From contig CAVVZZ010000011.1 of NCBI GenBank assembly GCA_963752915.1, forward strand, positions 42,708 to 106,707: a stretch of 64,000 nt of DNA, read 5' to 3'. Positions within the stretch are counted from its first letter, which is position 1. Each line of letters begins with the position of its first letter. Positions 6,081 through 33,324 of this stretch are shown here, piece after piece. The translations under genes and the position numbers were made by a program. Below the pieces are notes generated by a model. The model made no database searches. It worked only from the letters and a program-made list of their open reading frames with translations, and was not told where the DNA came from. The DNA is from Ignavibacteriota bacterium. Lineage in GTDB: Bacteria > Bacteroidota > Ignavibacteria > UBA10030 > UBA6906.

Positions 6081-6239
6081 GGGGTTTGGGACAAACCTTG
6101 TTGGGTTCTGCCCCATGAAATAACAAAATTGCTGCTTACATACAATGCCATCCCGGCTACAAGTCGGGACTCCCCACCACGTGGCCACCGCCTGTCGTCT
6201 TAGGAACCGCCTGGACCTCCCCCGTGTTAGACTACCATC

Positions 6240-6291
6240 AATTGCTGACGAGCGAATAGGGGAGACCTGCCTGGAATCGAAACGTCAGCAA
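6240..6291. repeat. perfect 10-bp inverted repeat (ATTGCTGACG / CGTCAGCAAT) with 32-nt spacer in a divergent intergenic region
   Basis: Read directly: 6240-6249 'attgctgacg' and 6282-6291 'cgtcagcaat'. Lies between the divergently transcribed cupredoxin gene and the M64-like peptidase gene. Confidence 0.5.
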
Positions 6292-6428
6292 TCTGGCATT
6301 GCCGTTGCCCCAACGTACAATGACATCCCTTGTTCTCGTTCAGGCGCCAAGAACGGTGAAGGTTTCGATCCACTAGTTCAGCGACCACAGGGTTGCTGTC
6401 CTTGTTAGAAACATGAGGAGGTGCCGCC

Positions 6429-20915: not shown

Positions 20916-20925
20916 GAAGAAAAAT

Positions 20926-23358
20926 ATGGATAGCGACAAACTGACATCGCTGATCGAAACGTTGGACTACGGCCCGGCTCCCGAATCTGAATCGAAAGCC
21001 AGGGAGTGGCTCAAGGCGCATGAGGCGAAATTTTCACACTCCATCAACGGGAACTGGCAATTGCCTCGCCAGGGGAAGTATTTCGCAACGATCAATCCGT
21101 CGAGGAGCAGCGAAGTGCTCGCGGAGATTGCGCTCGGGACGAAAGAAGACGTCGACGCCGCGGTCGATGCTGCACGGGAGGCGTTCCCGAAGTGGAGCGC
21201 GCTGTCGGGCCATCACCGAGCCCGCTATCTCTATGCGATAGCCAGGGCAATCGCAAAACATGCTCGCGTGTTTGCCGTGCTTGAATCTCTCGACAATGGA
21301 AAGCCGATTCGTGAGACCCGGGACATCGACGTCCCGGTTGTGATCAGACATTTCTACTACCATGCAGGCTGGGCGCAGACGCTGGACGATGAGTTCCCGG
21401 GATATCGTCCGGGGGGTGTGATCGCGCAGATCGTCCCCTGGAATTTCCCGTTTCTGATGCTCGCATGGAAGATCGCGCCGGCGATTGCCGCCGGCAATAC
21501 CATCGTTATCAAGCCTTCGAAGTCCACGCCTCTGAGCGCATTGTTGCTTGCAGACATCTTGATGAATGAAGTCCGGCTGCCGGCCGGGGTCGTGAATGTC
21601 GTCACCGGCGATTCCAGAACGGGGACGATGCTCTACGAGCATCCAGTCCCGTGGAAGGTCACCTTCACAGGCTCGACGGAGGTGGGGCGCATTATCCGGG
21701 CCGGGACGGCCGGATCAGGAAAACACCTGACGATGGAGCTGGGAGGCAAATCGCCGTTCATCGTCTTCGAGAACGCTGACCTCGATAGTGCGATCGAAGG
21801 GGTCGTGAACGGGATCTGGTTCAATGAAGGACAGGTCTGTTGTGCAGGATCACGGCTCCTTGTTCAGGAGGGAATTCACGACGAGTTCATCAAGCGGTTA
21901 AAGCGCCGCATGAGCAAACTCCGTGTCGGCAACCCGCTCGACAAGGCCGTCGATATGGGAGCGATCAGCAATGCCGAACAACTGAAGAAGATCACTGAAC
22001 TTATGGAAGTGGGACAGGACGAGGGTGCGGTGATGTGGCAGCCCGGAAACGTCCACTGTCCGTCGGGCGGATACTTTCTGCCTCCAACGCTTTTCACCAA
22101 AGTTGAACCGTCGTATCGTATTGCGCAGGAAGAGATCTTCGGCCCGGTTCTCGTCACGCTGACATTCCGCACTCCTGCTGAGGCAGTCCAGATCGCCAAC
22201 AACACGCGATATGGACTCGCCGCGTCGATCTGGTCACAGGACATCGATACCGCAATGGACATTGCACGGAAAGTCAAGGCAGGAACCATCTGGATCAATT
22301 CAACCAATCTTTTTGACGCAGCGTCGGGCTTCGGTGGATACCGGGAGAGCGGCTATGGGAGGGAAGGGGGCCGCGAAGGAATGTACGATGTGTTGGTTGA
22401 GGAGGCCCATGCGAGGGTCGTTGCGGGCACAATCAGCAGTGTGACCGTTGAGGGAGCGACCGAATTCTCTGGTAGCGCACTTGAAGCGCGCGGTGGGCAC
22501 AACGGCAACGGCATAGCCGAAGTGGATCGGACCTTCCGTTTCCTGATCGGCGGGAAGCTGGTGCGTCCGGATCAAGCCGGCAGCTTCTCGATTACCTCTC
22601 CGACCGGGAAGTTGCTCGGCGTTGTCGGCGAAGCAAACAAGAAGGATGTGCGCAATGCCGTTGCTGCGGCACGATCGGCATTCCCTTCGTGGTTTGAGTC
22701 CGCGGCGCATCTCCGAGCGCAGATTCTCTACTTTCTCGCCGAGAACCTTGCTGTGGAAAAAGCACGGTTTGCTGAGGCGATCGTTGCCCAAACCGGTGTG
22801 AGTGCCGATGCCGGTCAGGCGGAAGTCGAGCGGGCGATCAGCAGGATTTTCGATTTCGCGGCATACGCAGACAAGTTCGGCGGGACCGTTCAGCCGGTTC
22901 TTGGACGAAGGATGGTCATCGCTGTGCGTGAACCCGTCGGCGTCATCGGCATTCGTGCGTCGGATGAATCGCCGCTGCTTGGCCTGGTCACGCTTATCGC
23001 TTCGGCTGTAGCAATGGCGAACACTGCCGTCGTCGTCGCCGGCAAACATGCGCTAAGCGCCATGGACCTGGTGCAAGTGATCCTCCACTCCGATGTCCCT
23101 CCAGGCGTTGTGAACATTCTGACGGCTCAAAACCCCGACGCTATTGCCAAAGTCCTCGCCGAGCATGAAGATGTCGATGCGATCTGGTATTTCGGCAATG
23201 GCGAAGGTTCTGCAGTCGTTGAGAAGGCATCGACGAGCAACATGAAGCAGACGTGGGTTTCGAACGGGAAGTCTGTGGACTGGGCTGGTCTGAAAAGCGA
23301 GAAGATCCTTCTAAAATCTACCCAGGTGAAGAATATCTGGGTGCCGTACGGGGTGTGA
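20926..23358 (+). CDS. two-domain aldehyde dehydrogenase (ALDH16-like: complete ALDH domain + C-terminal degenerate ALDH-like domain)
   Basis: Start set at 'MDSDKLTSL' (the 20848 start would overlap deoC by 68 bp). Domain 1: 'IVPWNFPFLMLAWKIAPAIAAGNTIVIKPS', 'ELGGKSP', catalytic 'NEGQVCCAGSRLLV'. Domain 2 (about aa 540-800) repeats the cofactor-binding half ('GVVGEANKKDVRNAVAAARSAF...VGVIGIRASDESPLL') but lacks the Cys/Glu catalytic motifs. Confidence 0.75.
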   Translation: MDSDKLTSLIETLDYGPAPESESKAREWLKAHEAKFSHSINGNWQLPRQGKYFATINPSRSSEVLAEIALGTKEDVDAAVDAAREAFPKWSALSGHHRARYLYAIARAIAKHARVFAVLESLDNGKPIRETRDIDVPVVIRHFYYHAGWAQTLDDEFPGYRPGGVIAQIVPWNFPFLMLAWKIAPAIAAGNTIVIKPSKSTPLSALLLADILMNEVRLPAGVVNVVTGDSRTGTMLYEHPVPWKVTFTGSTEVGRIIRAGTAGSGKHLTMELGGKSPFIVFENADLDSAIEGVVNGIWFNEGQVCCAGSRLLVQEGIHDEFIKRLKRRMSKLRVGNPLDKAVDMGAISNAEQLKKITELMEVGQDEGAVMWQPGNVHCPSGGYFLPPTLFTKVEPSYRIAQEEIFGPVLVTLTFRTPAEAVQIANNTRYGLAASIWSQDIDTAMDIARKVKAGTIWINSTNLFDAASGFGGYRESGYGREGGREGMYDVLVEEAHARVVAGTISSVTVEGATEFSGSALEARGGHNGNGIAEVDRTFRFLIGGKLVRPDQAGSFSITSPTGKLLGVVGEANKKDVRNAVAAARSAFPSWFESAAHLRAQILYFLAENLAVEKARFAEAIVAQTGVSADAGQAEVERAISRIFDFAAYADKFGGTVQPVLGRRMVIAVREPVGVIGIRASDESPLLGLVTLIASAVAMANTAVVVAGKHALSAMDLVQVILHSDVPPGVVNILTAQNPDAIAKVLAEHEDVDAIWYFGNGEGSAVVEKASTSNMKQTWVSNGKSVDWAGLKSEKILLKSTQVKNIWVPYGV

Positions 23359-23426: not shown

Positions 23427-23516
23427 AGTGTCGCGGCACTTTATCCACCCGACCTGTTGTTACTCCTGCATCGATCATTCTCTGAATTCCCCACCATTCC
23501 GTGCAGGAGGTTCTCC

Positions 23517-24119
23517 ATGGCGTTCATCGAAACCATCCCCGAAGAAGAGGCCACCGGCGACGTCCGGAAAATCTACGACGACGACCGGAAAGGGAAGAGC
23601 TACCTTCCAAACTACTCCAGAGTATTCTCGCTCCGGCCAACCGTAAAGGAGGCATGGAACGGTCTCTTGAAGAGCATCAAAAGCAACATGGACTCTCGCA
23701 GGTACGAGCTGGTTACGGTTGCTGCTGCGAAGGCGCTCAGGAGTTCCTATTGCATGCTCGCCCATGGATCGATCCTCCAGGAGAAGTATTACACCACTGT
23801 ACAGATTACTTCGATTGTGCAACAGCCTTCAGGGCCTCCCTTGAGCGAAGGCGAGGTCGCCATGATGAAATTTGCGGAACACGTGGTTCGTGATGCCACC
23901 TCGATCACCCGTGAAGAGATTGAGTCTCTGCGGAGACATGGCTTTACCGATCCGGAAATTTTCGACATCACCGTGACGGCCACGGCGCGCTGCTTCTTCA
24001 GCAAAACGCTTGATGCCCTTGGCGCGGAACCGGACATCGTGTATCTCTACCTCGATAAGGAGATGAGAGATGCGCTGACGGTCGGTCGGCCGATTTCTGA
24101 GTCAACATGTTCTGAGTAA
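23517..24119 (+). CDS. carboxymuconolactone decarboxylase-family (AhpD-like) peroxidase-related protein
   Basis: Start re-set to 'MAFIETIPEEE' (RBS AGGAGG at 23506-23511). CxxxH motif 'SSYCMLAHGS' typical of the AhpD/CMD fold. About 200 aa. Confidence 0.6.
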   Translation: MAFIETIPEEEATGDVRKIYDDDRKGKSYLPNYSRVFSLRPTVKEAWNGLLKSIKSNMDSRRYELVTVAAAKALRSSYCMLAHGSILQEKYYTTVQITSIVQQPSGPPLSEGEVAMMKFAEHVVRDATSITREEIESLRRHGFTDPEIFDITVTATARCFFSKTLDALGAEPDIVYLYLDKEMRDALTVGRPISESTCSE

Positions 24120-24303
24120 GGACGGGTCTTTCGCTCCCAACGTGAATTTCTGAGTTCTGAATTCCGAGTTCAGAATTCAGAATTCATCTGTCCTCCCCAT
24201 CTCCCCCTCTCCCCATCATTCTTTGCCCATTCTCTGACATTTCCGTGACATCTCCTTCTGGCTCTGCACGTATTTTGACGTGAGAAACAGAAGGAGTCTA
24301 GTC

Positions 24304-25263
24304 ATGAAAAACGAGGCGGTGCTGGTTCGGGCAATGTGGACCACAATGCGCCCCTATTTGCTTTTCGTCTCGGCAATTACCGGGGTTGCCGGCATGGCCG
24401 CGACGACAACGGTGTCTCTGGCGCCGCTGCTCACGACGTTCATCGCTGCCTTTTTCGCCTATGGGTTTGGACAAGCGCTTACAGATTGCTTTCAGACCGA
24501 CACGGACGCGATCTCCGCCCCGTACAGGCCTTTAACTACCGGACTCGTCTCCAGGAAATCGATTTTCCTGATGAGTCTGACGGGGCTGACGCTCTGCGCC
24601 GTCACATTCGCGGCACGCAACCCCTGGAATCTTGCGCTGGGAGCAGCGGCTGCCCTCGGCCTGGCAACCTACACACCCTTCAAGCGGAAATGGTGGGGAG
24701 GTCCATGGTACAATGGTTGGATCGTCGTCGTCCTTTGTGTGATGAGCTATCTTGCTACCCGCGATCGCGCCGAAATGTCGCTCCCCCCGTTTTTCTTGCC
24801 TTTGCTCGGGACCGTGTTTTTCGGCTACGCAAACTTCGTTCTTGCCGGATATTTCAAAGACATCGAAGCGGATTCGGCCACGGGATATAGCACTTTGCCG
24901 GTGGTGTTTGGACGAAGAGTTGCCGCCTATGCGAGCGACGGACTTGCCGTTGCCTTTTGTGCTGCGGCGGCATGGACTGCTGTTCAAGTGTTGGGAATCT
25001 ACCCTTCGCGCCCCGGGCACCTGCTGGCATTGCTCTTCTGCATTCCGGCTCTGTGCCACATCCTGGTAGGGCAAATCCAGTTGCACCGAAACAATCGTGA
25101 CTCCGATGCCTACCGGCCAATCATTCATGTAGTTCAATCGTACATCCTTCTGCTTTCAGCCGTTGCGACATTACTGCGGCCGGAATGGACCGCTCTTCTC
25201 GTGGTCCACTATGGGGCGTTTCTGCAGGTCCTCGAAAGGCGGCCGGAGGTCAGCCAGATATGA
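24304..25263 (+). CDS. UbiA-family polyprenyltransferase (second motif resembles the DGGGPS / chlorophyll-synthase branch)
   Basis: ATG at 24304 with RBS AAGGAG 8 bp upstream (the listed 24280 start is GTG). 8-9 predicted TM helices. Asp-rich motif 1 'ALTDCFQTDTDAIS'. Motif 2 'YFKDIEADSATGYSTLPVVFG'. Confidence 0.75.
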   Translation: MKNEAVLVRAMWTTMRPYLLFVSAITGVAGMAATTTVSLAPLLTTFIAAFFAYGFGQALTDCFQTDTDAISAPYRPLTTGLVSRKSIFLMSLTGLTLCAVTFAARNPWNLALGAAAALGLATYTPFKRKWWGGPWYNGWIVVVLCVMSYLATRDRAEMSLPPFFLPLLGTVFFGYANFVLAGYFKDIEADSATGYSTLPVVFGRRVAAYASDGLAVAFCAAAAWTAVQVLGIYPSRPGHLLALLFCIPALCHILVGQIQLHRNNRDSDAYRPIIHVVQSYILLLSAVATLLRPEWTALLVVHYGAFLQVLERRPEVSQI

Positions 25264-26186
25264 TGGTGATCCTGAATCCCAATGCAGGGGGAGGAACTGC
25301 GAGTGAGAAATGGGCGCGAATCAAGGATTCACTTCCATCCCCGGAGGAGAGGATCGTAACCCGAACGGTTGGAGACTGCTCGGCATTGCCTCAACTCATC
25401 GAGGGGGCCATCAACAATGGGGAGCCCCATATTGTTGCGGCGGGTGGCGACGGAACCGTCCACGAAGTTCTCAACGCACTCATGTCGCTGCCCGGGGAAC
25501 GACGGCGGAACATCATCCTTGGCGCAATCGGACTGGGCTCGAGCAATGATTTCCACAAACCCGTTTCCGATGGACATTCGCTTTGTGGCATTCCGCTGCG
25601 AATAGACTTTCGGAAAGCACAGAATCGGGACGTTGGCGTCGTGGAGGTCGAAACAGACTCTGGTGTCAACCGGCGCTGTTTTCTCATTAATGCCAGCATC
25701 GGTCTGACGGCTGAGGGGAACACTTTCTTCAACACCCCGGATTCTTTGCTTCATTGGTTGAAGAAACACTCCACGGGATTGGCAATTTTCTATGCTGCAG
25801 TTCGCTCAATCATGACCTACCAGAACGAACCGGTCAAGGCGACATTCGGAGGCCGGGATGCATTTCGACTCAATGTTACAAATCTGGGCATTGTGAAGAA
25901 CCCACACTTTTCCGGTAGTCTCCATTATGATCAGAAGCCTGATTACACCAATGGAATGCTGGGCATCTTCGCAGCAAATGATCTTGGTTTTTGGGGCCGT
26001 CTCAAGTTGCTGCGAAATCTCTCCCGTGGCAGGTTCTCCGGCCTTCGCAATACTTTTTCCCGATCAGAGGCGGAGTTGACGATTGAAACAGACCACAATG
26101 TAGCCATCGAGGTCGACGGCGAAATCATTGTCGGTCGGCGGGCGCATTTCTCTGTTCTCCAAAACAGCCTTATGGTGTGCACATGA
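25260..26186 (+). CDS. lipid kinase of the DAGK_cat / YegS / sphingosine-ceramide kinase family
   Basis: Start 'MMVILNPNAGGG' forms an ATGA overlap with the UbiA stop. Signature 'VAAGGDGTVHEVLNAL'. 'GAIGLGSSNDF'. Confidence 0.75.
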   Translation: MMVILNPNAGGGTASEKWARIKDSLPSPEERIVTRTVGDCSALPQLIEGAINNGEPHIVAAGGDGTVHEVLNALMSLPGERRRNIILGAIGLGSSNDFHKPVSDGHSLCGIPLRIDFRKAQNRDVGVVEVETDSGVNRRCFLINASIGLTAEGNTFFNTPDSLLHWLKKHSTGLAIFYAAVRSIMTYQNEPVKATFGGRDAFRLNVTNLGIVKNPHFSGSLHYDQKPDYTNGMLGIFAANDLGFWGRLKLLRNLSRGRFSGLRNTFSRSEAELTIETDHNVAIEVDGEIIVGRRAHFSVLQNSLMVCT

Positions 26187-27229
26187 TGGACGACATATTC
26201 GAAAACGCGATAGTCGCGAGCCTGGCGTCATCCCTTCCAAGGAATCCCGATCAGTTCAATGCGCTGCACGAAAGCGATTCGGAAATCATCCGGGTTGCGG
26301 GAGGACCGGGGAGATATCTTGCCGTAACGACCGATTCTATCGTAGAAGAGATCGAACAGCGCATCTACGTCGATCCGTATCAGATTGGATGGATGACCGT
26401 GATGGCCAACCTGAGTGATCTTGCGGCAGTCGGCGCAAGGCCACTTGGACTTCTCCTTTCGGAGACCATCCCGCATGATGCGACTACGGGGTATTTGATA
26501 AGCCTTCAGGAAGGAATACGGGACGCGTGCCGCATTGAAGAGACCGCAATCCTCGGCGGCGACACCAATCGCAGCGATAGACTCCATATGTCGGCAACAG
26601 CAATTGGCATGATCGAAGCGGACAGGCCGGTCACACGCATTGGCTGCGCCGCTGGCGACATTCTCTATTGTACTGGCACTCTCGGTTCAGGGAACGCATT
26701 CGCGGCGGATTGCCTCCTCGGACCAAAAACGAAGGGCACCTTTCTGCCCGCTGCAAAGGTCCGGGAAGGCATCGCCCTTGCTCCCCTGAGTTCGGCATGT
26801 ATGGACACAAGCGATGGCTTCTTTGCCACCCTCGATCAACTTGGCCGATTGAATAACGTTGGATTTCAATTGGACGACACCTGGGAAGAGCTTTTGGACA
26901 CCACTGCGGTATCGACAGCAGATGCAATGGGACTTCACCCGTGGATGCTCCTTGCCGGGCCGCACGGAGAATATCAACTGGTCGTTTCGGTAAGGCCGCA
27001 AGAGCAAGAGTCTGTAGAATCTCTTCGATTCGACGATGGAACAGGACTGGTCCGTGTTGGAACAATTGTAGAGACACCTGGAATAGCGCTGGGAAAGTGG
27101 TGGAGGCTCAACGAATGCGATTTGGCCAGGGTTCGCAATTACAATATCCCTGGCGCGGCAGGAGTTCGAGAGTATATCCGCTTCCTTTTCGACCTGGAAT
27201 CGGTGTGCAGGAATTCGACGCAAGCATGA
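26177..27229 (+). CDS. AIR synthase-related protein (PurM/ThiL/HypE superfamily)
   Basis: 'ESDSEIIRVAGGPGRYLAVTTDSIVEEIEQ' and 'IGWMTVMANLSDLAAVGARPLGLLLSETIP' match the PurM-like N-domain (cf. ThiL 'GDDAAVL...LVTTDTLVEGVHF'). 10-bp overlap with the kinase gene. Confidence 0.65.
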   Translation: MHMMDDIFENAIVASLASSLPRNPDQFNALHESDSEIIRVAGGPGRYLAVTTDSIVEEIEQRIYVDPYQIGWMTVMANLSDLAAVGARPLGLLLSETIPHDATTGYLISLQEGIRDACRIEETAILGGDTNRSDRLHMSATAIGMIEADRPVTRIGCAAGDILYCTGTLGSGNAFAADCLLGPKTKGTFLPAAKVREGIALAPLSSACMDTSDGFFATLDQLGRLNNVGFQLDDTWEELLDTTAVSTADAMGLHPWMLLAGPHGEYQLVVSVRPQEQESVESLRFDDGTGLVRVGTIVETPGIALGKWWRLNECDLARVRNYNIPGAAGVREYIRFLFDLESVCRNSTQA

Positions 27230-27294
27230 CATTCCTGTGACATCCCGGCCCACCGGGCGCCGTACATTTGTCATGAGAAACGAGGAGAACAGCC

Positions 27295-28612
27295 ATGACA
27301 ACCACGGGATCATACAACGGCGGGGAAAACTTCGATTTGCGCGACATCCTCTTACGGGGCAGGTCGATGAAAATGGCCGAACGATTAGGTTTCTTCCAGG
27401 AATTTCTCCGTTCGATTCAAAGTCGGGAGGAAAACTTCTGCATGCGCTGCATCAGCTCACCGGCCGATCGTGAAGTCATCGTTGTTGACCCTCTCTCGGG
27501 GGTGGAACGGGCAATGCTCATGTTTGGATCGAACAACTATCTCGGCCTCGCTACGCACCCCTACGTGCAGGCGCAAGCGGCGAAAGCATTGAAGCTCTTT
27601 GGGGCAGGTCTTGGCGGACCTCCGCTGCTGAATGGCTATACGACTCTTCACCGCACCCTCGAGGAACGCCTTGCCTCGTTGAAAGGAACAGACGATGCGA
27701 TGATCTTCTCCAGCGGGTACGGATCGAATGTGGGTTTGGTCTCCGGAATTGCCGGGAAATCCGATATGATCGTCTACGATGCATATAGTCATGCATCGTT
27801 TTGCTGACGGGATAAAGCTGTCAGGCGCGCAGTCTTGCATGTTTGCACACAACGATGTCTCGAATTTGAAGACGATTCTTGACCAGGCCTCCAGACGGGC
27901 GCACAACGATCTGTTCGTGGGCGTCGAAGGGGTCTACTCCATGGACGGAGACATTGCGCCGCTGGACCGAATCCTTTCACTCTGCCGCGCGTATGGAGCC
28001 CGCCTGATTGTCGATGACGCGCACGGAACCGGGGTCATGGGGCCCCACGGACGGGGCACGGCCGAAGAGTTCGGACTTGAAGGAGAGGTCGATATTACGA
28101 TGGGGACGTTCAGCAAAGCCTTTGCTGTTTCCGGCGGTTTTGTTGCCGCAGCCAAACCCATTATCGACTATCTTCGGTATTTCGCCCGATCGTACATGTT
28201 TTCGGCATCGCTCCCGCCTGTCGTCATTGCCACGGTGCTCGCCGGCCTGGACGTCATGGAACAGGAACCGGAACGATTGACGCAATTGCGTCAGAACATC
28301 GCCACTGCCACCGCAGCCCTGAGGCGCATAGGGTTTTCGTCCCCGTCGCAGTCTGCGATCATACCGTTGCGCGTCCCGGTCGAGATGGATATCCGGAGAG
28401 CGGCAAAGCTGTTCCATGAACGCGGCATCTTTTTGAATTCGATCGAATACCCCGCCGTTCCCGTTTCGCAGCAACGGTTCCGGATCAGCATCATGGCGAC
28501 CCACACAAACGAAGATATTGCACGTCTGGTTTCAGCGGTGGAAGAGGTCTGGGCGTTGTTCAAAGACGAAAGGGTAGACTATGAAAACGCAGAGCAGACA
28601 CATGCCGCGTGA
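27295..28612 (+). pseudogene. alpha-oxoamine synthase (SPT/BioF/Kbl family, SPT-like PLP-lysine motif) interrupted by a +1 frameshift near 27795-27808
   Basis: ORF 27295-27807 (frame 1) ends 'DMIVYDAYSHASFC*'. ORF from 27779 (frame 2) continues 'RFADGIKLSGAQSCMFAHNDVSNLKTIL...LIVDDAHGTGVMGPHGRG...GTFSKAFAVSGGF'. Together they are colinear with the AONS family (E. coli BioF 'DRLSHASLLEAASLS...FAHNDV...MVDDAHGTGVIG'). Deleting one T of the 'cgttttgct' run restores 'SHASFADGIKLSGA'. Confidence 0.6.
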
Positions 28613-30014
28613 CAAGAAAATTCTCGAGATCATCGTCCTCTTTCAGAACCTGGGAGATGATCACCCGTATTACGCCCAAAGTCCTGCACCTCCGCTTCCA
28701 GGGATCCTTCTGGCGGCGCTGACGCCCGACCTGGTGGACGTCCGGGTGCTTCACGAAATGGTCCGGCCGATCAACTACGACACGGATGCGGATTTCATCG
28801 CTCTGAGCTTCATGGACTATCTCGCACCGCATGCCTATGAGGTCTCCGCGCGATTCCGGGCGATGGGGAAGACGGTCGTCGGAGGAGGGAAATTCGCGTC
28901 GACGTTTCCTGATCAGGTGGAACCGCATTTTGACGCCATTCTCGTCGGTGAAGCACAGGGCGTCTGGCCGGAAATGGTGCGCGACATGGTCAAAGGAACC
29001 CTCAAGCGGCGTTATGAATCGCCCTCGGAAGGATCGCTGGACAATATTCCGCCGCCCAGATATGACCTCGTGGAATCCAGGTATGTCACGCCCATCGTCA
29101 CGGAGGCAACGCGCGGCTGCCCGCACTCCTGCACATACTGCCAGCTGAATATCAAACGGATGCCGTTCCGTACGCGCCCGATCGCCGATGTCATCCGGGA
29201 TCTTCGCGCTACGTCCGCACTTCCCTGGCACAAGCGAAAGATGGCCATGCTCCTTGACAACAACCTGGGGGGAGACCTCTCCTACGCGAAAGCCCTCCTC
29301 CGCGAAATCGCAAAGCTCAAGTTCTGGGGAATAGGTGCGCAATTCAGCATCGAATGCCTTCGCGACGACGAATTCATCGAGGCACTCGCGGATGCACACT
29401 GCAGAATGGCGTTCATCGGAATGGAATCATTGGAGCCGCAGAGTCTCGCATCGGTGCGGAAACCGCAGAACAGGGTCGAAGAGTACCGCGTGTTCTTTGA
29501 CAAGCTCCATCGCCGGGGGATCTTGACGTTCACCGGATTGATGTTTGCGCTCGAGGAGGACACCGTCGAATACTACCATCAGTTGCCGGAGATGCTCGAC
29601 GACGTTGGCACGAGTGTCATCCTCCCGTCGATTGCCATCCCGCTCTATGGGACGCCTTTGTACCATTCGGCCCTGATGGAAGGGCGGATTGTCGACGACG
29701 ATTTGTCACACTACGAAGGCGACCATATTGTCTTCAGGCACAAGAAGCTTTCGGACAATGCGATTATCTCCGCCTATGCAAGCGTTACGCTTGGCTTCTA
29801 CTCATGGAGGAACATCGTGAAGCGTCTGGCGAAGATCCTCTTGAAGCAGGAACGAATGGAGCCGTGGAAGGAGTATCTCTTGAGACTGGGGATTGTAACC
29901 TTTGTGTATTTCAAGCTCTCCATATTTCAGAGACATCACGCACGGGTAAAGATCCGTCAGATCGCGGGACAGGACGCGAAAGGTTGCCGGAACGCGGTCT
30001 CGAAGGCCGCCTGA
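28581..30014 (+). CDS. B12-binding domain radical SAM enzyme (class B rSAM, probable C-methyltransferase or lipid-modifying enzyme)
   Basis: N-terminal Rossmann-like cobalamin-binding region ('KKILEIIVLFQNLGDD...DFIALSFMDY'). Radical SAM cluster motif 'ATRGCPHSCTYCQL'. Overlaps the preceding gene end (alternative start 28602 gives an 11-bp overlap). Confidence 0.75.
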   Translation: MKTQSRHMPRDKKILEIIVLFQNLGDDHPYYAQSPAPPLPGILLAALTPDLVDVRVLHEMVRPINYDTDADFIALSFMDYLAPHAYEVSARFRAMGKTVVGGGKFASTFPDQVEPHFDAILVGEAQGVWPEMVRDMVKGTLKRRYESPSEGSLDNIPPPRYDLVESRYVTPIVTEATRGCPHSCTYCQLNIKRMPFRTRPIADVIRDLRATSALPWHKRKMAMLLDNNLGGDLSYAKALLREIAKLKFWGIGAQFSIECLRDDEFIEALADAHCRMAFIGMESLEPQSLASVRKPQNRVEEYRVFFDKLHRRGILTFTGLMFALEEDTVEYYHQLPEMLDDVGTSVILPSIAIPLYGTPLYHSALMEGRIVDDDLSHYEGDHIVFRHKKLSDNAIISAYASVTLGFYSWRNIVKRLAKILLKQERMEPWKEYLLRLGIVTFVYFKLSIFQRHHARVKIRQIAGQDAKGCRNAVSKAA

Positions 30015-30018
30015 CCGT

Positions 30019-30702
30019 CTACGAACGAATGAATTTATAGCCGGCCGTATGCACGGTCAGGATGTGTTGCGGGCTTGAAGGATCGGATTCGAGCTTCTTC
30101 CTCAATGAGAGAACATAGTTGTCGACGGTTCTGGTGGTAGGGAAGGTTTCGTAACCCCACACCTTATTGAGCAGCATCTCGCGCGTAACAACTTCGCCCT
30201 CATGCTGAACAAGGAATCGGAGGACGGCATATTCGCGCACCGTCAGCTTCACCGTTTTCCCTTTGCGTTTGGCCTCCTGACGGATGAAGTCGACGTTCAC
30301 CCCTCCAAAGGCAACATCCTCCACCTCCTGACGCAGTGCACCCTTTCGGCGCAGCAGCGCGCGTATGCGTGCGAGCAGCTCCCTGATGCCAAAGGGCTTC
30401 GTTACATAGTCGTCCGCGCCGATCTCGAGGCCGAGGACCTTGTCCATTTCCTGTCCTTTGCTGGTGAGCATCAGGATCGGAACAGTGAGTCCCGCAGAGC
30501 GCAATTGCTTGCAGACTTCTTCTCCATTCATATCGGGAAGACCAAGGTCCAGGATGATCAGGTCGACGCTTTCGTGGCTTGCGAACGCCATGCCCCGCTC
30601 GCCTGTCCCCGCGGCCAGAACGTGAAAGTGTTCGCGTTCCAGCATGTCCTGGAGTCCTTTGCGGATCGCCGCATCGTCTTCGATAATAAGGATCGTCTTC
30701 AT
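30019..30702 (-). CDS. OmpR-family response regulator (receiver + winged-helix)
   Basis: 'ILIIEDDAAIRKGL...DLIILDLGLPDMNGEEV...LMLTSKGQEMDKVLGLEIGADDYVTKPF' and C-terminal 'VKLTVREYAVLRFLVQHEGEVVTREMLLNKVWG'. Confidence 0.85.
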   Translation of the reverse strand: MKTILIIEDDAAIRKGLQDMLEREHFHVLAAGTGERGMAFASHESVDLIILDLGLPDMNGEEVCKQLRSAGLTVPILMLTSKGQEMDKVLGLEIGADDYVTKPFGIRELLARIRALLRRKGALRQEVEDVAFGGVNVDFIRQEAKRKGKTVKLTVREYAVLRFLVQHEGEVVTREMLLNKVWGYETFPTTRTVDNYVLSLRKKLESDPSSPQHILTVHTAGYKFIRS

Positions 30703-33324
30703 GGTTGTTTCGCTTGGCGGGCAGTGTGAGTGTTCTTGACCACGGGTTTGTTTGTGAGCTTGCCGCTGTGCATTTCGAAGGCGGGGGCGGGATGCACAGG
30801 AAACACGAGGGTGAAGGTGCTCCCGGAGTCCGGTGTGCTCTTCACTTCGATGGACCCGTTATGCTCGTCCATGATGTGCTTTACCACGGAAAGTCCGATG
30901 CCCACCCCCTGAACCCGCCTCGGTAATCCAGGATCGCGGTAAAATTTCTGAAACAGATGATCCATCGCTTCGCGTGAGATGCCTCGACCGTGATCTTCCA
31001 CGCTGCACCGAATTGTCCCATCTTTGATGCTCAACGCAATTCGGATTCGTTTGTCTCCGAGGGAATACTTCATCGCGTTGGAGAGCAGGTTCAGCAGTGC
31101 TTCCCGGACGGCGTCGGGATCGGCCGAGATGGTAAACCGGGAGCCGGAGATCGTTCGGCGCCCATTCCGGCGCCCTCCTTCCACCGGTGACCTTGAAATG
31201 CTCCTTCGAAAGCTGGTAGCGCAGAGTTGTGAGAACAGTTCGAATGAGTGTGTCCAGGCGAACGGGCTTGCGCAGGTAGTGCACTTCACCTCTGTCAATC
31301 CGCGCAGAGTCCAGGATCGTGTTGACCATCCGCTGAAGCCTGTCTGTTTCCCCCTCGATAATCTGCAAATACTCCCGCGAGTCCTTTTCCTGACGGGGGA
31401 TGCGTTGCTGCAGCATCTCGGCGAACATCTTGATGGACGTCAGGGGCGTTCGCAACTCATGGGAAACGTAGGAAACGAAGTCGGATTTCATCGCATTAAG
31501 ACGTTCCATCCGAACGGCCTGCTCGGCTTTCTCCATCACCTCCTTCTTCAAAAGATGCCGTTCGATTTCTAGTCCGACCTGTTGTAGGAGGCTGGAAAGG
31601 AGATCGATGTCTTCGCTGCTGAATCTGCTCCCGGAGCGTTTCCTGCCGAGAAGCAACAGCCCGAGAACCCGTCCGTCGGAAGAGCGTGAGACATGCGCAA
31701 GGGCCACCCCGGCTGCGTCGCATTCCGGATGCACAAGAGGAGCGAACGGAACCCCCGGCTCCACACAGTCTGCAATCGCGAAAGGGAGGAGTGCCGATTT
31801 CTCGGCATCCGCCCCCAGCAGGCGGCAAATGGCATCGACCGGAGTATCAAAGCCCATGCCCTCGGAAATATGCGGATCGCCGTCTTGCGGATGGAGGACG
31901 TACAGGATCTTCTCCGGAGAGATGATCGTCGAGGTCCGATCGACAAGGAGGCGGATCACATCTTCAGCATACACGCAGGCTGCCACATCTTCCTGGAATT
32001 TCCGTTCCGCTTTTCGATAGTCGTACCGAATCCGGAAGAATCGCCGGTCCACTTCCTGCTGGACGAGTCTTCGCGCCGGCTCGAACAGGAGCGCGACGAT
32101 GATGGCGGCTCCTGCGGAGACGCTGACGGATTCCTCGTAGGTCAGCGACGAGACAAGGCCTGCAGCGCCCCCTACGATCGCAATGTAGACTACTGCCACC
32201 ATGCCCATGACCGTGCCATACACAACGCTTCTGTTCAGGATGAGGTCGATGTCCATGATGTGGTATCGCACGATCGAAGCCCCGAACGCCAGCGGGATGA
32301 AGCCCGAGGAGAGGAGCATCACACTCTCAGGGACGAGTCCGTAGGAAAGGACCATGTGCGGGATTACCCACAGGACGACAAACGGGACAAAGCCGATAAA
32401 GAGTCCCCAAACCACCCATCGGATCTTCCTTCGTTCTCCTTCGTCGCCTGCTTCACGGTACGACTGTCGAATCGTCCAGAGACCATTGAAAACCAACGCT
32501 ATCATGAACCACCGGGTCGCGGCAAACCATGTCAGGTGGGAATGGAAAATGGCGAGGGACCCTGATTGCCAGGCCATGATGAACGAAGCGCCGCTCCCGA
32601 TCGCGAGAACGGCGGCAATGCTGTAGAGCGCCGGCAGGAACAGTCCCCAGCGGATCGGTCGAGACCGGGGAAAGAGCCGCATGAAGTGGAAGAACAAAAG
32701 GGGAACAAAAGCGTACATCCCCGAGAAGACAGCACGCAGCAACGGTCCGAGAATCGGCGGGATGCTGACAACCGATCCCCACGTCGTTGAGAGCATCACT
32801 GCCGTGCCGAGGGAGCCGAAGTGATAGACCCTGGCGGCGGGGTCGTTCGATTTTCGCCAGAAGACGATGAGACCGACGACAAAGAAAAGCGAGCTAACGA
32901 AGATAACGGACGCCAGGTAGAATTTGCTGTAGAAGTGCATCAGGAAGATCTCTTCGCTTCGTTCCCCCTTGCTTCCATTGAGCGTAAGGAGAACTTTCTG
33001 GCCGATCCGAAGGCCGTCGAAGACAAACTCCACATCTTCGACTGTTGATATGGATTGACCGTTGATACTCAGGAGAGCGTCGTGCTCATGTATTTGGCGC
33101 GACAAGGGTTCGTCAACCCGGTCGACGTAGACAATGCCGTCGCGACTTTCGAGTTCAACGGGGATTCCGGGTTTCGAGGCAATGTGGACAATCCCGACGC
33201 AACAGGCGACAAGTGCAACAATATCAAGCAGATAGACGAGCGGGCGAAGAGGGGCTCGGTGGGTCATCAGCGGACTCCACGCTGGGAGAGGGGGAGGACT
33301 ACGGGGAGAATATACAGAATTCAT
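30699..33324 (-). pseudogene. multi-TM sensor histidine kinase with N-terminal PDZ-like domain, split by a frameshift between HisKA and HATPase_c (about 31150-31300)
   Basis: The 821-aa frame carries PDZ-like 'DGIVYVDRVDEPLSRQIHEHDALLSINGQSISTVEDV', then 6 or more TM helices, then H-box 'HELRTPLTSIKMFAEMLQQ', and then degenerates ('..RSRRRPGSTAEP..'). The 199-aa frame carries the ATPase: 'ISADPDAVREALLNLLSNAMKYS', 'DHGRGIS', 'GVGIGLSVVKHIMDEHNGSIEV'. Its stop overlaps the OmpR regulator start by 4 bp. Confidence 0.6.

What the first reader, a model, noticed from the sequence alone, without database searches (positions are those of the whole stretch)
24304..30014. Tightly coupled five-gene cluster: UbiA prenyltransferase / DAGK-type lipid kinase / PurM-like / SPT-like oxoamine synthase / B12-radical SAM. 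Candidate pathway for an undescribed membrane lipid
Seen in sequence: five same-strand genes with overlapping or abutting junctions (ATGA at 25260-25263; 10-bp overlap at 26177-26186; 28581 or 28602 overlapping the 28612 stop). Together they form a translationally coupled operon: UbiA (24304-25263), lipid kinase (25260-26186), PurM-like (26177-27229), oxoamine synthase (27295-28612), rSAM (28581-30014). Motifs: UbiA Asp-rich boxes 'ALTDCFQTDTDAI' and 'YFKDIEADSATGYSTLPV'; kinase 'GGDGTV'; PurM-like 'LAVTTDSIVEE...MANLSDLAAVGA'; oxoamine synthase 'LIVDDAHGTGVMG' and PLP-Lys 'GTFSKAF'; rSAM 'CPHSCTYCQ' behind a B12-binding N-domain. Established knowledge: the UbiA second box 'FKDIE(G/A)D...G..TLP' is characteristic of the DGGGPS / chlorophyll-synthase branch rather than the quinone MenA/UbiA branch. 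The 'FSK' Lys motif and overall layout are closest to serine palmitoyltransferase among oxoamine synthases; SPT makes sphingoid or other amino-lipid backbones. DAGK_cat kinases phosphorylate ceramide, sphingosine or DAG. B12-binding rSAM enzymes methylate or cross-link unactivated lipid carbons (hopanoid HpnP/HpnR, archaeal GDGT enzymes). PurM-superfamily enzymes do ATP-dependent carbonyl/amide activation. Inference: this combination is not a described pathway. It looks like a route to a prenylated and/or C-methylated phospho-aminolipid (sphingolipid-like) or an ether-type lipid, of the kind proposed for FCB-group bacteria. The flanking AhpD-like gene and the OmpR two-component system may be regulatory neighbours.
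Basis: partly seen in the sequence, partly recalled or inferred. Interest (0 to 1): 0.78.

Follow-up and report, generated by a model that had tools for sequence, protein, structure and literature searches.

The report
Conserved, regulated operon for unknown lipid
This is a real gene cluster, conserved in many uncultured Ignavibacteriota, Bacteroidota and Gemmatimonadota, that most likely makes an undescribed membrane lipid and is switched on together with secreted phosphate-scavenging enzymes; in this particular genome one of its five genes carries a frameshift.

Summary
The five genes and all quoted motifs are present. Two corrections apply. The oxoamine synthase is split by a 1-nt insertion at about 27805. 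The cluster is also two transcription units, UbiA-kinase-kinase and oxoamine synthase-rSAM, each preceded 54 nt upstream by the same TGACA-N6-TGACA box.

The "PurM-like" protein is specifically a ThiL (thiamine-phosphate kinase) paralogue. The UbiA is nearest to archaeal DGGGP synthase and chlorophyll synthase. The rSAM is nearest to AprD4, HpnJ and class-B enzymes. No protein reaches any curated family cut-off.

A scan of species genomes found 186 with a ThiL-like relative. UbiA, YegS-type kinase and ThiL-like kinase form an invariant trio (44 of 45 well-flanked loci). The rSAM is near-constant. The oxoamine synthase occurs only in Ignavibacteriota/Bacteroidota-labelled and a few other non-Gemmatimonadota loci. 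In some loci a BtaA-like enzyme plus a GNAT replaces the rSAM.

The box is 55-fold enriched. It tracks the adjacent OmpR/PhoB-family two-component system. In relatives it also precedes secreted 5'-nucleotidase genes, which suggests a phosphate-scarcity regulon.

Best reading (inferred): lipid alcohol to phosphate to diphosphate, then DGGGPS-like transfer, giving a new, possibly phosphorus-free, amino/ether lipid. The product is unknown, and I found no published description.

The parts
24235..24276 (+). P1 operator/promoter. Direct-repeat box TGACATTTCCGTGACA (24235-24250), a 20-nt spacer, then a -10-like TATTTT (24271-24276). A weak third repeat lies at 24224. The box ends 54 nt before the UbiA ATG. 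RBS AAGGAG is at 24291-24296.
   Evidence: Only two matches with 1 mismatch or fewer occur in the 64-kb window. The TGAC..TGACA columns are conserved in an alignment of 9 upstream regions whose mean identity is 37%. The box is found upstream of the first cluster gene in relatives.
24304..25263 (+). UbiA-superfamily membrane transferase of 319 aa, DGGGPS/ChlG-like. The first Asp-rich box is atypical: T-D-C-F-Q-T-D-T-D.
   Evidence: PF01040 scores 99.5 bits. The best PDB hits are MjDGGGPS and ChlG. The AF2 model has pLDDT 90.4 and its top Foldseek hit is 6m31. The motif is invariant in 70 orthologues.
25260..26186 (+). YegS/BmrU-type (DAGK_cat) lipid kinase of 308 aa, with the GGDGT motif.
   Evidence: PF00781 scores 63.9 bits. 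TIGR00147 scores 67 bits, below the 118 cut-off. The best PDB hits are YegS, BmrU and DgkB.
26183..27229 (+). ThiL-like (PurM-superfamily) kinase of 348 aa. An alternative GTG start lies at 26177.
   Evidence: The thiL model TIGR01379 scores 148.2 bits, below the 184 cut-off; purM scores 30.9. The best PDB hit is A. baumannii ThiL at 94 bits, and four Asp-containing motifs (D53, D81, D129, D210/D213) align with ThiL. The family is large: 996 representatives at E<=1e-30, a count that may include bona fide ThiL.
27227..27268 (+). P2 operator/promoter. Box TGACATTCCTGTGACA (27227-27242, overlapping the ThiL-like stop codon), a 20-nt spacer, then TACATT (27263-27268). The box ends 54 nt before the oxoamine synthase ATG. 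The architecture matches P1, including GAGAAAC..GGAG.
   Evidence: A box lies upstream of the oxoamine synthase gene in most Ignavibacteriota/Bacteroidota loci.
27295..28612 (+). alpha-Oxoamine synthase (AONS family), interrupted by a 1-nt insertion at about 27805. The N-terminal part is 27295-27807; the C-terminal part is read in frame 2 from 27800. The repaired protein is 438 aa.
   Evidence: PF00155 scores 137 bits. The repaired protein scores bioF 372.6, SPT-CFB 356.7 and Kbl 331, all below cut-off. The best PDB hit is S. multivorum SPT at 263 bits.
28581..30014 (+). Radical SAM enzyme with an N-terminal Rossmann (B12-binding-like) domain, CPHSCTYC cluster motif and a long C-terminal helix. 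The deposited annotation starts at 28602.
   Evidence: PF04055 scores 47.7 bits and PF02310 scores 23.8, below cut-off. HpnJ is the best NCBIfam hit at 61 bits, far below its 578 cut-off. The AF2 model has pLDDT 80.6. Foldseek ranks AprD4 first, followed by TsrM, MgmA, TokK, CysS and OxsB.
30019..30702 (-). OmpR/PhoB-family response regulator, convergent with the cluster. It is the likely binder of the P1/P2 boxes.
   Evidence: Pfam finds Response_reg and Trans_reg_C. The best NCBIfam hits are MtrA 206, YycF 203 and PhoB 202, all below cut-off. It is adjacent in 23 of 31 well-flanked Ignavibacteriota/Bacteroidota-labelled loci and 0 of 9 Gemmatimonadota loci. Box presence tracks its presence.
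30699..33324 (-). Sensor histidine kinase, whose stop overlaps the regulator's start. In this window it is frameshifted between about 31186 and 31229.
   Evidence: tblastn with the intact L004 and L005 kinases gives two segments in different frames. Relatives carry (PDZ)-GAF-HisKA-HATPase domains. The catalytic core is nearest PnpS/PhoR, below cut-off.

Best explanation
**What it is.** The window carries one copy of a locus that is widespread in FCB-group bacteria and makes an as yet undescribed lipid.

**Shown.**
- The invariant core is a DGGGPS/ChlG-like UbiA membrane transferase, a YegS-type lipid kinase and a ThiL-type kinase, with overlapping stop and start codons.
- A second unit encodes an alpha-oxoamine synthase and an AprD4/HpnJ/class-B-like radical SAM enzyme.
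- Each unit is preceded by the same TGACA-N6-TGACA direct-repeat box.
- In relatives that box also precedes secreted 5'-nucleotidase genes, and it occurs in the lineages that keep the adjacent OmpR/PhoB-family two-component system.

**Inferred.**
1. The response regulator activates both units as part of a nutrient response, probably to phosphate scarcity.
2. The YegS-type kinase phosphorylates a lipid alcohol.
3. The ThiL-type kinase converts that monophosphate into a diphosphate. This is the only chemistry known for ThiL within the PurM superfamily.
4. The UbiA enzyme uses the diphosphate as leaving group to join the lipid to an acceptor through an ether (or ester or N-alkyl) bond. Pyrophosphate is released, so the product itself need not contain phosphorus.
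5. Where it is present, the oxoamine synthase condenses an amino acid with an acyl thioester to give a long-chain amino-ketone backbone.
6. The radical SAM enzyme tailors the chain or head group, together with an SDR partner in other lineages.

The identities of the alcohol, the acceptor and the product are not known.
For: **Domains and nearest relatives:**

**ThiL specificity.** The thiL model scores 148 bits, against 42 for selD, 38 for hypE and 31 for purM. The Asp-containing motifs D53, D81, D129 and D210/D213 align with ThiL.

**Synteny.**
- 186 species genomes carry a ThiL-like relative.
- Among 45 loci with at least 4.5 kb on both sides: UbiA 44, kinase 44, rSAM 39, oxoamine synthase 33.
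- Two different oxoamine synthase subfamilies have been recruited to the trio: 438 aa here, and 395 aa in L078, L080 and L082.

**Lipid-type accessory genes in variant loci**:
- a FadD-like ligase;
- a GNAT;
- a DUF3419/BtaA-like betaine-lipid synthase domain (PMC10685587);
- a MacB-type ABC exporter;
- SDRs.

**Regulation.**
- P1 and P2 have identical architecture.
- There are 55 exact boxes in 1.22 Mb of loci against 1.0 expected. They sit before UbiA or its upstream SDR, before the oxoamine synthase, and before divergent neighbouring genes.
- 7 of 8 flanking T9SS 5'-nucleotidase genes carry the box, and L085 does too.
- The box co-occurs with the regulator: 26 of 36 loci with a box against 8 of 45 without, p = 1e-6.
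- The regulator and kinase are nearest PhoB/MtrA/YycF and PnpS/PhoR.
- In Flavobacterium the Pho regulon includes T9SS proteins, phosphatases and lipid-remodelling genes beside phoBR (PMC8115612).
Against: - No enzyme was assayed, and no product is known.
- Canonical UbiA chemistry needs an allylic or anomeric diphosphate, so a fatty or sphingoid diphosphate would be unprecedented as donor.
- The family lacks two canonical residues of the first Asp-rich box (N to T, middle D to Q). Donor binding may therefore differ.
- The order could be reversed, with the kinases acting on the acceptor or on the product. That would give a phosphorylated lipid.
- The regulator and kinase do not reach the PhoB/PhoR cut-offs.
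- The link to phosphate rests on 5'-nucleotidase neighbours in relatives, not in this window. No pst or phoU genes were seen.
- Gemmatimonadota versions lack the box, the two-component system and the oxoamine synthase.
- The box/regulator correlation is not corrected for phylogeny.
- In this genome the oxoamine synthase and the sensor kinase are frameshifted, so the locus may be inactive here.
Confidence: 0.42

Rival explanations
1. A sphingolipid-like phospho-aminolipid is made as follows:
1. The oxoamine synthase acts as serine palmitoyltransferase.
2. The DAGK-type kinase phosphorylates the long-chain base or ceramide.
3. The DGGGPS-like UbiA adds a prenyl chain from an ordinary prenyl diphosphate to this phosphorylated single-chain acceptor, as DGGGPS does with GGGP.
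4. The rSAM methylates the product.
5. The ThiL-like enzyme then modifies the phosphate head or activates a carbonyl.
For: - The best PDB hit of the oxoamine synthase is S. multivorum SPT.
- The 395-aa variant scores best with the SPT-CFB model, at 445 bits.
- SDR, GNAT and FadD-like genes in relatives parallel the reductase, ceramide synthase and acyl-activation steps of bacterial ceramide synthesis (the pathway itself is from established knowledge).
- DGGGPS, the nearest UbiA relative, takes a phosphorylated acceptor.
Against: - All SPT models are far below cut-off, and bioF scores higher for the window's protein.
- The oxoamine synthase is missing from all 9 well-flanked Gemmatimonadota loci, whereas the trio is constant.
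- A ThiL paralogue has no role in known sphingolipid pathways.
- A phosphorus-rich end product fits poorly with co-regulation with phosphate-scavenging enzymes.
- rSAM methylase activity is unproven.
Confidence: 0.2
2. Prenol salvage. The two kinases re-activate free isoprenoid alcohols (geranylgeraniol, phytol or a modified prenol) to diphosphates. They would be non-homologous analogues of plant VTE5/VTE6. The UbiA enzyme then builds isoprenoid ether or ester lipids. The oxoamine synthase and rSAM would be lineage-specific decorations.
For: - The kinase-kinase-UbiA trio is invariant, whereas the other genes vary.
- The UbiA is nearest to DGGGPS and ChlG, which use C20 diphosphates.
- The host genomes come from soil, peat, fen and sediment MAGs, where phytol should be abundant (inference).
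Against: - The oxoamine synthase and rSAM share the same operator as the trio, so they are functionally linked where present.
- No isoprenoid genes lie in the window.
- DAGK_cat and ThiL families have no known prenol or prenyl-phosphate kinases.
- No GGGPS partner is present.
Confidence: 0.12
3. The product is not a bulk membrane lipid. It would be a lipid-anchored polyol or aminosugar-type molecule or a carrier, analogous to the ebo cluster, HpnJ cyclitol ethers or decaprenyl-phosphoribose. The kinases would make a sugar or cyclitol diphosphate, and the rSAM with its SDR would perform AprD4/AprD3-like deoxygenation or ring chemistry.
For: - The rSAM's nearest sequence and structure neighbours act on aminosugar-type substrates: AprD4 and HpnJ.
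- An SDR overlaps the rSAM gene in Gemmatimonadota, L060 and L080, like the AprD4/AprD3 pair (the AprD3 partnership is from established knowledge).
- One UbiA family member uses a sugar diphosphate. DPPR synthase 8j8j is a weaker structural hit.
Against: - The kinase is nearest to lipid kinases.
- The UbiA is closer to DGGGPS than to DPPR synthase (E 7.5e-9 against 3e-4).
- Accessory genes in variant loci are fatty-acyl and lipid-type: FadD, GNAT, BtaA-like and MacB.
- The rSAM similarities are weak.
Confidence: 0.1
4. In this particular genome the locus is decaying. The frameshifts in the oxoamine synthase and in the sensor kinase are real mutations, so the pathway is at least partly non-functional here.
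For: - Two of about 14 genes in the 21 kb that is syntenic with L004 and L005 are frameshifted, and both belong to this system.
- The insertion is not in a homopolymer.
- The deposited record calls the 170-aa fragment as a gene.
Against: - All other cluster genes are intact and highly similar to relatives, at 70-86% identity.
- No other stop codons occur in either gene.
- Relatives come from assemblies with contig_N names that may be long-read assemblies (my assumption). Isolated indels are common in such assemblies.
- The intact sequence could not be found, and it could not be excluded either.
Confidence: 0.3

Closest known systems
Archaeal DGGGP synthase (UbiA family), and the GGGPS/DGGGPS pair of Ca. 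Cloacimonetes and other FCB bacteria (PMC7852524)
   Same: It is the nearest solved relative by sequence and by fold. The second box KD-x-x-x-D...G..TLP and the P-Y-R-P-L segment are shared. The host group is also FCB.
   Different: Only about 18% identical, scoring 48 bits against a cut-off of 296. The first box reads T-D-C-F-Q-x-D-T-D instead of N-D-x-x-D-x-x-x-D. There is no GGGPS partner. It is always paired with two kinases.
Plant phytol salvage: VTE5 (phytol kinase) and VTE6 (phytyl-phosphate kinase) feeding UbiA-type chlorophyll synthase and homogentisate phytyltransferase (established knowledge)
   Same: The logic is the same: alcohol to monophosphate to diphosphate, followed by UbiA-family transfer.
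   Different: The kinases are unrelated in family (DAGK_cat and ThiL/PurM-type here). The substrate is unknown. This is an analogy only and was not tested.
ThiL, thiamine-phosphate kinase
   Same: It is the best family and PDB match, and the Asp-containing motifs are conserved.
   Different: It falls below the equivalog cut-off (148 against 184 bits). The N-terminal motif is ESD-x-E, whereas ThiL has an I-G-D-x-D loop (PMC6416309). It is embedded in a lipid-type operon. The window has no TPP riboswitch and no thiamine genes.
Bacterial sphingolipid and sulfonolipid synthesis (Spt or Cfat, reductase, GNAT-type ceramide synthase, DAGK-type ceramide kinase)
   Same: An AONS-family enzyme and a DAGK_cat kinase are present here. 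SDR, GNAT and acyl-ligase genes occur in relatives.
   Different: No SPT, BioF or Kbl cut-off is reached. UbiA, the ThiL-like kinase and the rSAM have no counterpart in those pathways. The AONS is dispensable in Gemmatimonadota.
AprD4/AprD3 (rSAM diol dehydratase plus SDR), HpnJ, and class-B cobalamin rSAM methylases
   Same: The overall two-domain architecture is the same. AprD4 is the top PDB hit by sequence and by fold, and HpnJ is the top NCBIfam hit. The gene is paired with an SDR in some lineages.
   Different: Identity is 14-18%, and scores are far below cut-offs. The window's own locus has no SDR. Cobalamin binding and the reaction type are unknown.
PhoBR-controlled lipid remodelling (BtaAB betaine lipids, PlcP/glycosyltransferase, ornithine lipids; the Flavobacterium Pho regulon, PMC8115612)
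   Same: - An adjacent OmpR/PhoB-family two-component system.
- An 11-bp-periodic direct-repeat operator at the -35 position.
- Co-regulation with secreted phosphoesterases.
- A BtaA-like module in variant loci.
   Different: The regulator and kinase are not PhoB/PhoR equivalogs. The sensor has PDZ/GAF domains and many predicted membrane segments. The phosphate response was not measured. The biosynthetic enzymes are entirely different.

Membership tests
UbiA prenyltransferase superfamily | PF01040 above the gathering score, with a multi-helix membrane fold | tested here: met
   Scores 99.5 bits against 34.2. The AF2 model is all-helical with pLDDT 90.4.
DGGGP synthase / chlorophyll synthase | Equivalog score reached, and canonical N-D-x-x-D-x-x-x-D first box | tested here: not met
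   PRK12882 scores 48 against 296, and ChlG 41 against 313. The box is T-D-C-F-Q-T-D-T-D in 70 of 70 orthologues. These are still the nearest relatives.
MenA / UbiA quinone prenyltransferases | Equivalog score | tested here: not met
   Scores of 16-21 bits against cut-offs of 275-392.
YegS/BmrU/DgkB lipid kinases (DAGK_cat) | PF00781 domain with GGDGT; subfamily or equivalog score | tested here: inconclusive
   The domain is met (63.9 against 23.6). TIGR00147 scores 67 against 118.65 and YegS 48 against 387, so neither is met. The substrate was not testable.
ThiL (thiamine-phosphate kinase) | Equivalog score TIGR01379 | tested here: not met
   Scores 148.2 against 184.15.
ThiL (thiamine-phosphate kinase) | Conserved Asp-containing motifs of the ThiL/PurM fold (assumed metal/ATP ligands) | tested here: met
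   D53, D81, D129 and D210/D213 align with A. baumannii ThiL and are invariant in 15 family members.
ThiL (thiamine-phosphate kinase) | Thiamine context (TPP riboswitch, thi genes) | tested here: not met
   Rfam finds no hits in the window. The neighbours are lipid-type or unrelated genes.
PurM / PurL / SelD / HypE | Equivalog score | tested here: not met
   purM scores 30.9 against 236, selD 41.9 against 125 and hypE 37.8 against 252.
alpha-Oxoamine synthase family | PF00155 and PLP-binding residues (His stack, D-x-x-H, T-x-S-K) | tested here: met
   Scores 137 bits. SHAS, VDDAHG and TFSKAF are present and correspond to His138, Asp210/His213 and Thr241/Ser243/Lys244 of S. multivorum SPT (PMC10196870). 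The reading frame is broken in this window.
Serine palmitoyltransferase | Equivalog score (NF047600, NF047599, NF047603) | tested here: not met
   Scores 356.7 against 640, 326 against 500 and 269 against 670.
BioF / Kbl | Equivalog score | tested here: not met
   bioF scores 372.6 against 426.45 and Kbl 331 against 460.
Radical SAM superfamily | PF04055 and CX3CX2C | tested here: met
   Scores 47.7 against 29.5. The motif is C180-P-H-S-C184-T-Y-C187.
Cobalamin-dependent (class B) rSAM methylases | B12-binding domain above cut-off; cobalamin binding | tested here: inconclusive
   PF02310 scores 23.8 against 32.1. The fold matches both cobalamin enzymes and AprD4, which I recall to be cobalamin-free. 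Cofactor binding is not testable here.
HpnJ | Equivalog score TIGR03471 | tested here: not met
   Scores 61.3 against 577.6.
PhoBR phosphate regulon | PhoB / PhoR equivalog scores | tested here: not met
   PhoB scores 202 against 296, Bacteroidota PhoB 168 against 270 and PhoR 183 against 334.
PhoBR phosphate regulon | Shared direct-repeat operator in front of phosphate-scavenging genes | tested here: inconclusive
   The box precedes 7 of 8 flanking secreted 5'-nucleotidase genes in relatives, and also the one in L085. No such gene lies in this window. pst and pho genes could not be scanned genome-wide.

The most novel reading that the evidence does not exclude
A ThiL-derived lipid-phosphate kinase and a YegS-type kinase together make a non-canonical lipid diphosphate. 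A DGGGPS-like UbiA enzyme with a re-modelled Asp box uses it to build a phosphorus-free, ether-linked amino-lipid. That lipid replaces phospholipids when Ignavibacteriota, Bacteroidota and (with different regulation) Gemmatimonadota run short of phosphate. This would be a new, archaeal-style route to bacterial ether lipids, and a first lipid role for the PurM superfamily.
Probability: 0.22. Interest if true: 0.9.

Novelty: new variant of a known kind. Interest (0 to 1): 0.78.

Why it matters
Ignavibacteriota and Gemmatimonadota are abundant in soils, peat and sediments, and almost nothing is known about their membrane lipids. Organic geochemists still lack source organisms and genes for many environmental ether lipids and amino-lipids.

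This locus gives a concrete, testable gene set:
- three invariant enzymes plus exchangeable tailoring modules;
- a defined operator;
- a candidate inducing condition.

If the kinase-kinase-UbiA logic holds, it would be a new way of activating lipids for ether-bond formation in bacteria. It would also be a new function for a ThiL paralogue that genome pipelines now annotate as thiamine-phosphate kinase. That label would wrongly credit these genomes with a thiamine step.

Tried and rejected
- **Literature.** Ten full-text searches combined UbiA, lipid kinase, ThiL, rSAM, SPT, Ignavibacteria, Gemmatimonadetes and phosphate limitation. None found a description of the cluster.
- **Gene fusions.** I looked for fusions among the ThiL-like, UbiA and rSAM families. 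There are none. The one AIRS+aminotransferase protein (P0425) joins two truncated domains and looks like an assembly artefact.
- **AhpD-like gene (23514-24119).** It is conserved only in L004 and L005 and has no box of its own, so it is not part of the system.
- **Oxoamine synthase substrate.** S. multivorum SPT recognises serine mainly through water and the PLP phosphate (PMC10196870). There is therefore no diagnostic side chain, and I abandoned the attempt.
- **Frameshift.** My first repair (HASFADG) was wrong and was replaced by HASFCDG.
- **Other checks.** The window has no Rfam family, no convincing terminators or sigma-70 excess in the cluster and no isoprenoid or glycerol-lipid genes. 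Box matches with 2 mismatches are at chance level.

Full report

The + strand between 24304 and 30014 holds the reported genes.

The junctions are as follows:
- The UbiA stop and the kinase start share ATGA at 25260-25263.
- The kinase stop (26184-26186) overlaps the next gene. The deposited protein P0001 (348 aa) starts at ATG 26183, which gives a second ATGA overlap. GTG 26177 is the alternative start.
- The rSAM start, at 28581 or at 28602 (the latter used in the deposited 470-aa protein P0123), overlaps the oxoamine synthase stop at 28610-28612.

Two points differ from the finding.

First, 27295-28612 is 1318 nt and is not an ORF. It falls into 27295-27807 and 27779-28612 in different frames. 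The closest relatives read ...YDAYSHASFCDGIKLSG... through TTTTG(T/C)GACGG. The window has TTTTGC-T-GACGGG, a single extra base at about 27805 that creates TGA.

The sensor kinase downstream is also frameshifted, near 31186-31229. No other gene in the 21 kb that is syntenic with L004 and L005 is affected.

Second, a 65-nt gap separates the third and fourth genes, and it carries its own promoter-like region (section 4).

**2. What the proteins are**

Pfam confirms UbiA, DAGK_cat (plus a weak YegS_C match), AIRS, Aminotran_1_2 and Radical_SAM. The B12-binding domain is sub-threshold. Against NCBIfam no protein reaches any curated cut-off.

*UbiA.*
- It scores best with archaeal prenyltransferase and DGGGPS models and with ChlG. 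It scores only 16-21 bits with the MenA/UbiA quinone enzymes.
- Its only PDB relatives by sequence are M. jannaschii DGGGPS and chlorophyll synthase.
- A confident model (pLDDT 90.4) finds DGGGPS first by Foldseek (E 7.5e-9). The sugar-diphosphate-using DPPR synthase is far weaker.
- The profile alignment shows the shared ...PYRPL... segment and the second box KDIEAD..G..TLPV.
- The canonical first box N-D-x-x-D-x-x-x-D reads T-D-C-F-Q-x-D-T-D. This holds in 70 of 70 orthologues from all lineages.

*The 'PurM-like' protein.* It is specifically ThiL-like. The thiL model scores 148 bits (cut-off 184), against 31 for purM. The best PDB hit is A. baumannii ThiL, and four Asp-containing motifs align with it.

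*The kinase.* It is nearest to YegS, BmrU and DgkB.

*The repaired oxoamine synthase.*
- It scores bioF 372.6, SPT-CFB 356.7 and Kbl 331, all below cut-off.
- In the PDB, S. multivorum SPT leads at 263 bits, narrowly ahead of a BioF/Kbl enzyme at 251 bits.
- It is therefore an unassigned AONS subfamily, not a demonstrable SPT.

*The rSAM.*
- Its best NCBIfam hit is HpnJ at 61 bits, against a cut-off of 578.
- Its best PDB hit by both sequence and fold is AprD4, a radical SAM 1,2-diol dehydratase. TsrM, MgmA, TokK, CysS and OxsB follow.
- The two-domain class-B-type architecture is supported. Cobalamin use and methylation are not.

**3. Conservation**

The ThiL-like protein has many relatives at 40-72% identity, all from uncultured bacteria. 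Where pipelines have named them, the name is 'thiamine-phosphate kinase'.

A scan of one genome per species found 186 genomes with a relative. The best 80 loci come from these MAGs:
- Ignavibacteriota
- Bacteroidota-labelled
- Gemmatimonadota
- Zixibacteria
- Saprospiraceae
- Desulfobacterales

A tblastn comparison of the five window proteins against these loci gave the following for the 45 loci with at least 4.5 kb on both sides:

| Gene | Loci with it (of 45) | Note |
|---|---|---|
| UbiA | 44 | |
| YegS-type kinase | 44 | |
| rSAM | 39 | divergent in Gemmatimonadota |
| Oxoamine synthase | 33 | 30 of 31 Ignavibacteriota/Bacteroidota-labelled loci; 0 of 9 Gemmatimonadota |
| OmpR-type regulator | 25 | 23 of 31 Ignavibacteriota/Bacteroidota-labelled loci; 0 of 9 Gemmatimonadota |

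The accessory genes vary:
- One type of SDR sits directly upstream of UbiA in many loci.
- A second type of SDR overlaps the rSAM gene in Gemmatimonadota, L060 and L080.
- In L014, L029, L058, L073, L079 and L083 the rSAM is replaced by a DUF3419 protein. This is the betaine-lipid synthase BtaA/BTA1 domain (PMC10685587). A GNAT acyltransferase accompanies it in L014, L029 and L073, and a MacB-type ABC exporter in L014.
- L080 adds a FadD-like acyl ligase.
- L078, L080 and L082 use a different, 395-aa oxoamine synthase placed in front of UbiA.

The invariant unit is therefore UbiA plus the two kinases. Everything around it is lipid-type tailoring.

**4. Regulation (new)**

I aligned the regions upstream of UbiA from nine related loci. 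The flanks are otherwise diverged (mean identity 37%). One element is conserved: TGAC(A/G)-N2-T-N3-TGACA, followed by TA..TT and a GGAG ribosome-binding site.

In the window this box occurs exactly at 24235-24250. A second copy with one mismatch lies at 27227-27242. These are the only two matches in 64 kb at 1 mismatch or fewer.

Each box ends 54 nt before its start codon (UbiA and oxoamine synthase respectively). Both are followed by a 20-nt spacer, then TATTTT or TACATT, then GAGAAAC..GGAG.

Across 1.22 Mb of non-redundant loci there are 55 exact boxes, against 1.0 expected. The 55 boxes divide as follows:
- 11 precede UbiA.
- 9 precede the SDR upstream of UbiA.
- 13 precede the oxoamine synthase.
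- 12 precede other genes.
- 10 have no assigned downstream ORF.

Most of the 'other' targets are T9SS-secreted proteins. These include metallophosphoesterase/5'-nucleotidase genes: 7 of the 8 such genes in the loci carry the box on the correct strand, and so does the one in L085.

No Gemmatimonadota locus has the box. Those loci also lack the adjacent two-component system. Box and regulator co-occur: 26 of 36 loci with a box have the regulator, against 8 of 45 without. This is not corrected for phylogeny.

Direct repeats with 11-bp spacing that overlap the -35 position are the usual site type for OmpR/PhoB-family regulators (established knowledge). The regulator scores about equally with MtrA, YycF and PhoB, and the kinase core with PnpS and PhoR. 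All are below cut-off.

In Flavobacterium johnsoniae the Pho regulon comprises T9SS proteins, phosphatases, nucleases and lipid-remodelling genes next to phoBR (PMC8115612). I therefore infer that the locus belongs to a nutrient-scavenging regulon, probably responding to phosphate. This is an inference from neighbours in relatives. It is not shown for this genome.

**5. How it most likely works**

*Shown:* the enzyme families, their invariant association, and their co-regulation.

*Inferred:*
- Within the PurM superfamily, ThiL is the member that phosphorylates a phosphate monoester to a diphosphate.
- UbiA enzymes are the only cluster members that need a diphosphate substrate.
- YegS-type kinases make lipid monophosphates.
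- The simplest connection is alcohol to phosphate to diphosphate to UbiA-catalysed transfer with release of pyrophosphate. This is the same logic as plant VTE5/VTE6 feeding UbiA-type enzymes.
- The altered first Asp box may reflect an unusual donor.

The oxoamine synthase has been recruited twice independently, and once together with an acyl ligase. It probably supplies a long-chain amino-ketone backbone. Whether that backbone is the donor alcohol or the acceptor is open.

The rSAM's role is also open. It could methylate, or with an SDR it could perform AprD4-like dehydration and reduction. Its replacement by a BtaA-like enzyme plus a GNAT in other loci suggests head-group chemistry rather than core chemistry.

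The opposite order remains possible. In it, the kinase makes a phosphorylated acceptor as in DGGGPS chemistry, and the ThiL-like enzyme acts last.

**6. Comparison and novelty**

The locus works in part like four known systems:
- archaeal ether-lipid synthesis;
- phytol salvage;
- sphingolipid synthesis;
- Pho-controlled lipid remodelling.

It is a member of none of them. Every equivalog test failed (see the membership table).

Ten literature searches found no description of it. Related reports show only two things. FCB bacteria can carry GGGPS/DGGGPS pairs (PMC7852524). Anaerobes also make novel phosphorus-free lipids of unknown genetics under phosphate stress (PMC11181052).

I rate the locus a new variant of a known kind, namely a regulated lipid-biosynthesis operon. 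It has an unprecedented enzyme combination.

**7. Caveats**
- All relatives are MAGs.
- No product or activity is known.
- The phosphate link is indirect.
- The window's own copy has two frameshifts.
- Some statements rest on my own knowledge rather than on a tool result. These are the roles of the canonical UbiA box residues, the AprD4/AprD3 partnership, VTE5/VTE6, the geometry of the Pho box and bacterial ceramide synthesis.

Noticed in passing
window 30699-33324 (-): The sensor histidine kinase next to the cluster is frameshifted between about 31186 and 31229, compared with the intact 882-aa and 833-aa orthologues in L004 and L005. With the oxoamine synthase, that makes two frameshifts in 21 kb, both in this system.
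   Followed up: partly
window 6272-6298 (-): Two overlapping weak (2-mismatch) copies of the TGACA box lie 11 nt apart, about 84 nt upstream of ORF 5346-6188 (-), a 280-aa protein with no Pfam hit. This may be another regulon member. At this mismatch level hits are at chance frequency.
   Followed up: no
window 19839-23358 (+): A DeoC-family aldolase gene overlaps an 836-aa protein with two Pfam Aldedh matches. This pair and the neighbouring Memo-like and BNR/T9SS genes are syntenic with L004 and L005, so these MAGs are close relatives of the source genome.
   Followed up: partly
window 23514-24119 (+): An AhpD/CMD-family 'peroxidase-related' gene lies directly upstream of the cluster. It is conserved only in L004 and L005 and lies upstream of the P1 box, so it is probably unrelated to the pathway.
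   Followed up: yes
L014, L029, L058, L073, L079, L083: These are variant clusters in which a DUF3419 (BtaA/BTA1-like) protein takes the place of the rSAM. A GNAT accompanies it in L014, L029 and L073, and a MacB-type ABC exporter in L014. In L029 the box also precedes a secreted 5'-nucleotidase gene.
   Followed up: partly
L002 5674-6507 (-) and the genes downstream of it: In this Bacteroidota MAG a box on the minus strand (6700-6715) precedes a divergent run of genes: DUF3108, PAP2 phosphatase, two NAD-dependent epimerase/3beta-HSD-like genes, a CPBP protease and a third epimerase-like gene. The regulon may therefore contain further lipid-modifying enzymes.
   Followed up: no
whole window: Many T9SS cargo genes (Por_Secre_tail) are present, along with TonB-dependent receptors and glycoside hydrolases (GH88, GH38). 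Rfam finds no family in 64 kb. This is typical of a polymer-degrading FCB-group genome.
   Followed up: partly
UbiA orthologues in all loci: The first Asp-rich box is T-D-C-[FY]-Q-x-D-T-D in 70 of 70 orthologues. The canonical Asn and the middle Asp are replaced by invariant Thr and Gln. The consequence for metal or diphosphate binding is unexplained.
   Followed up: partly
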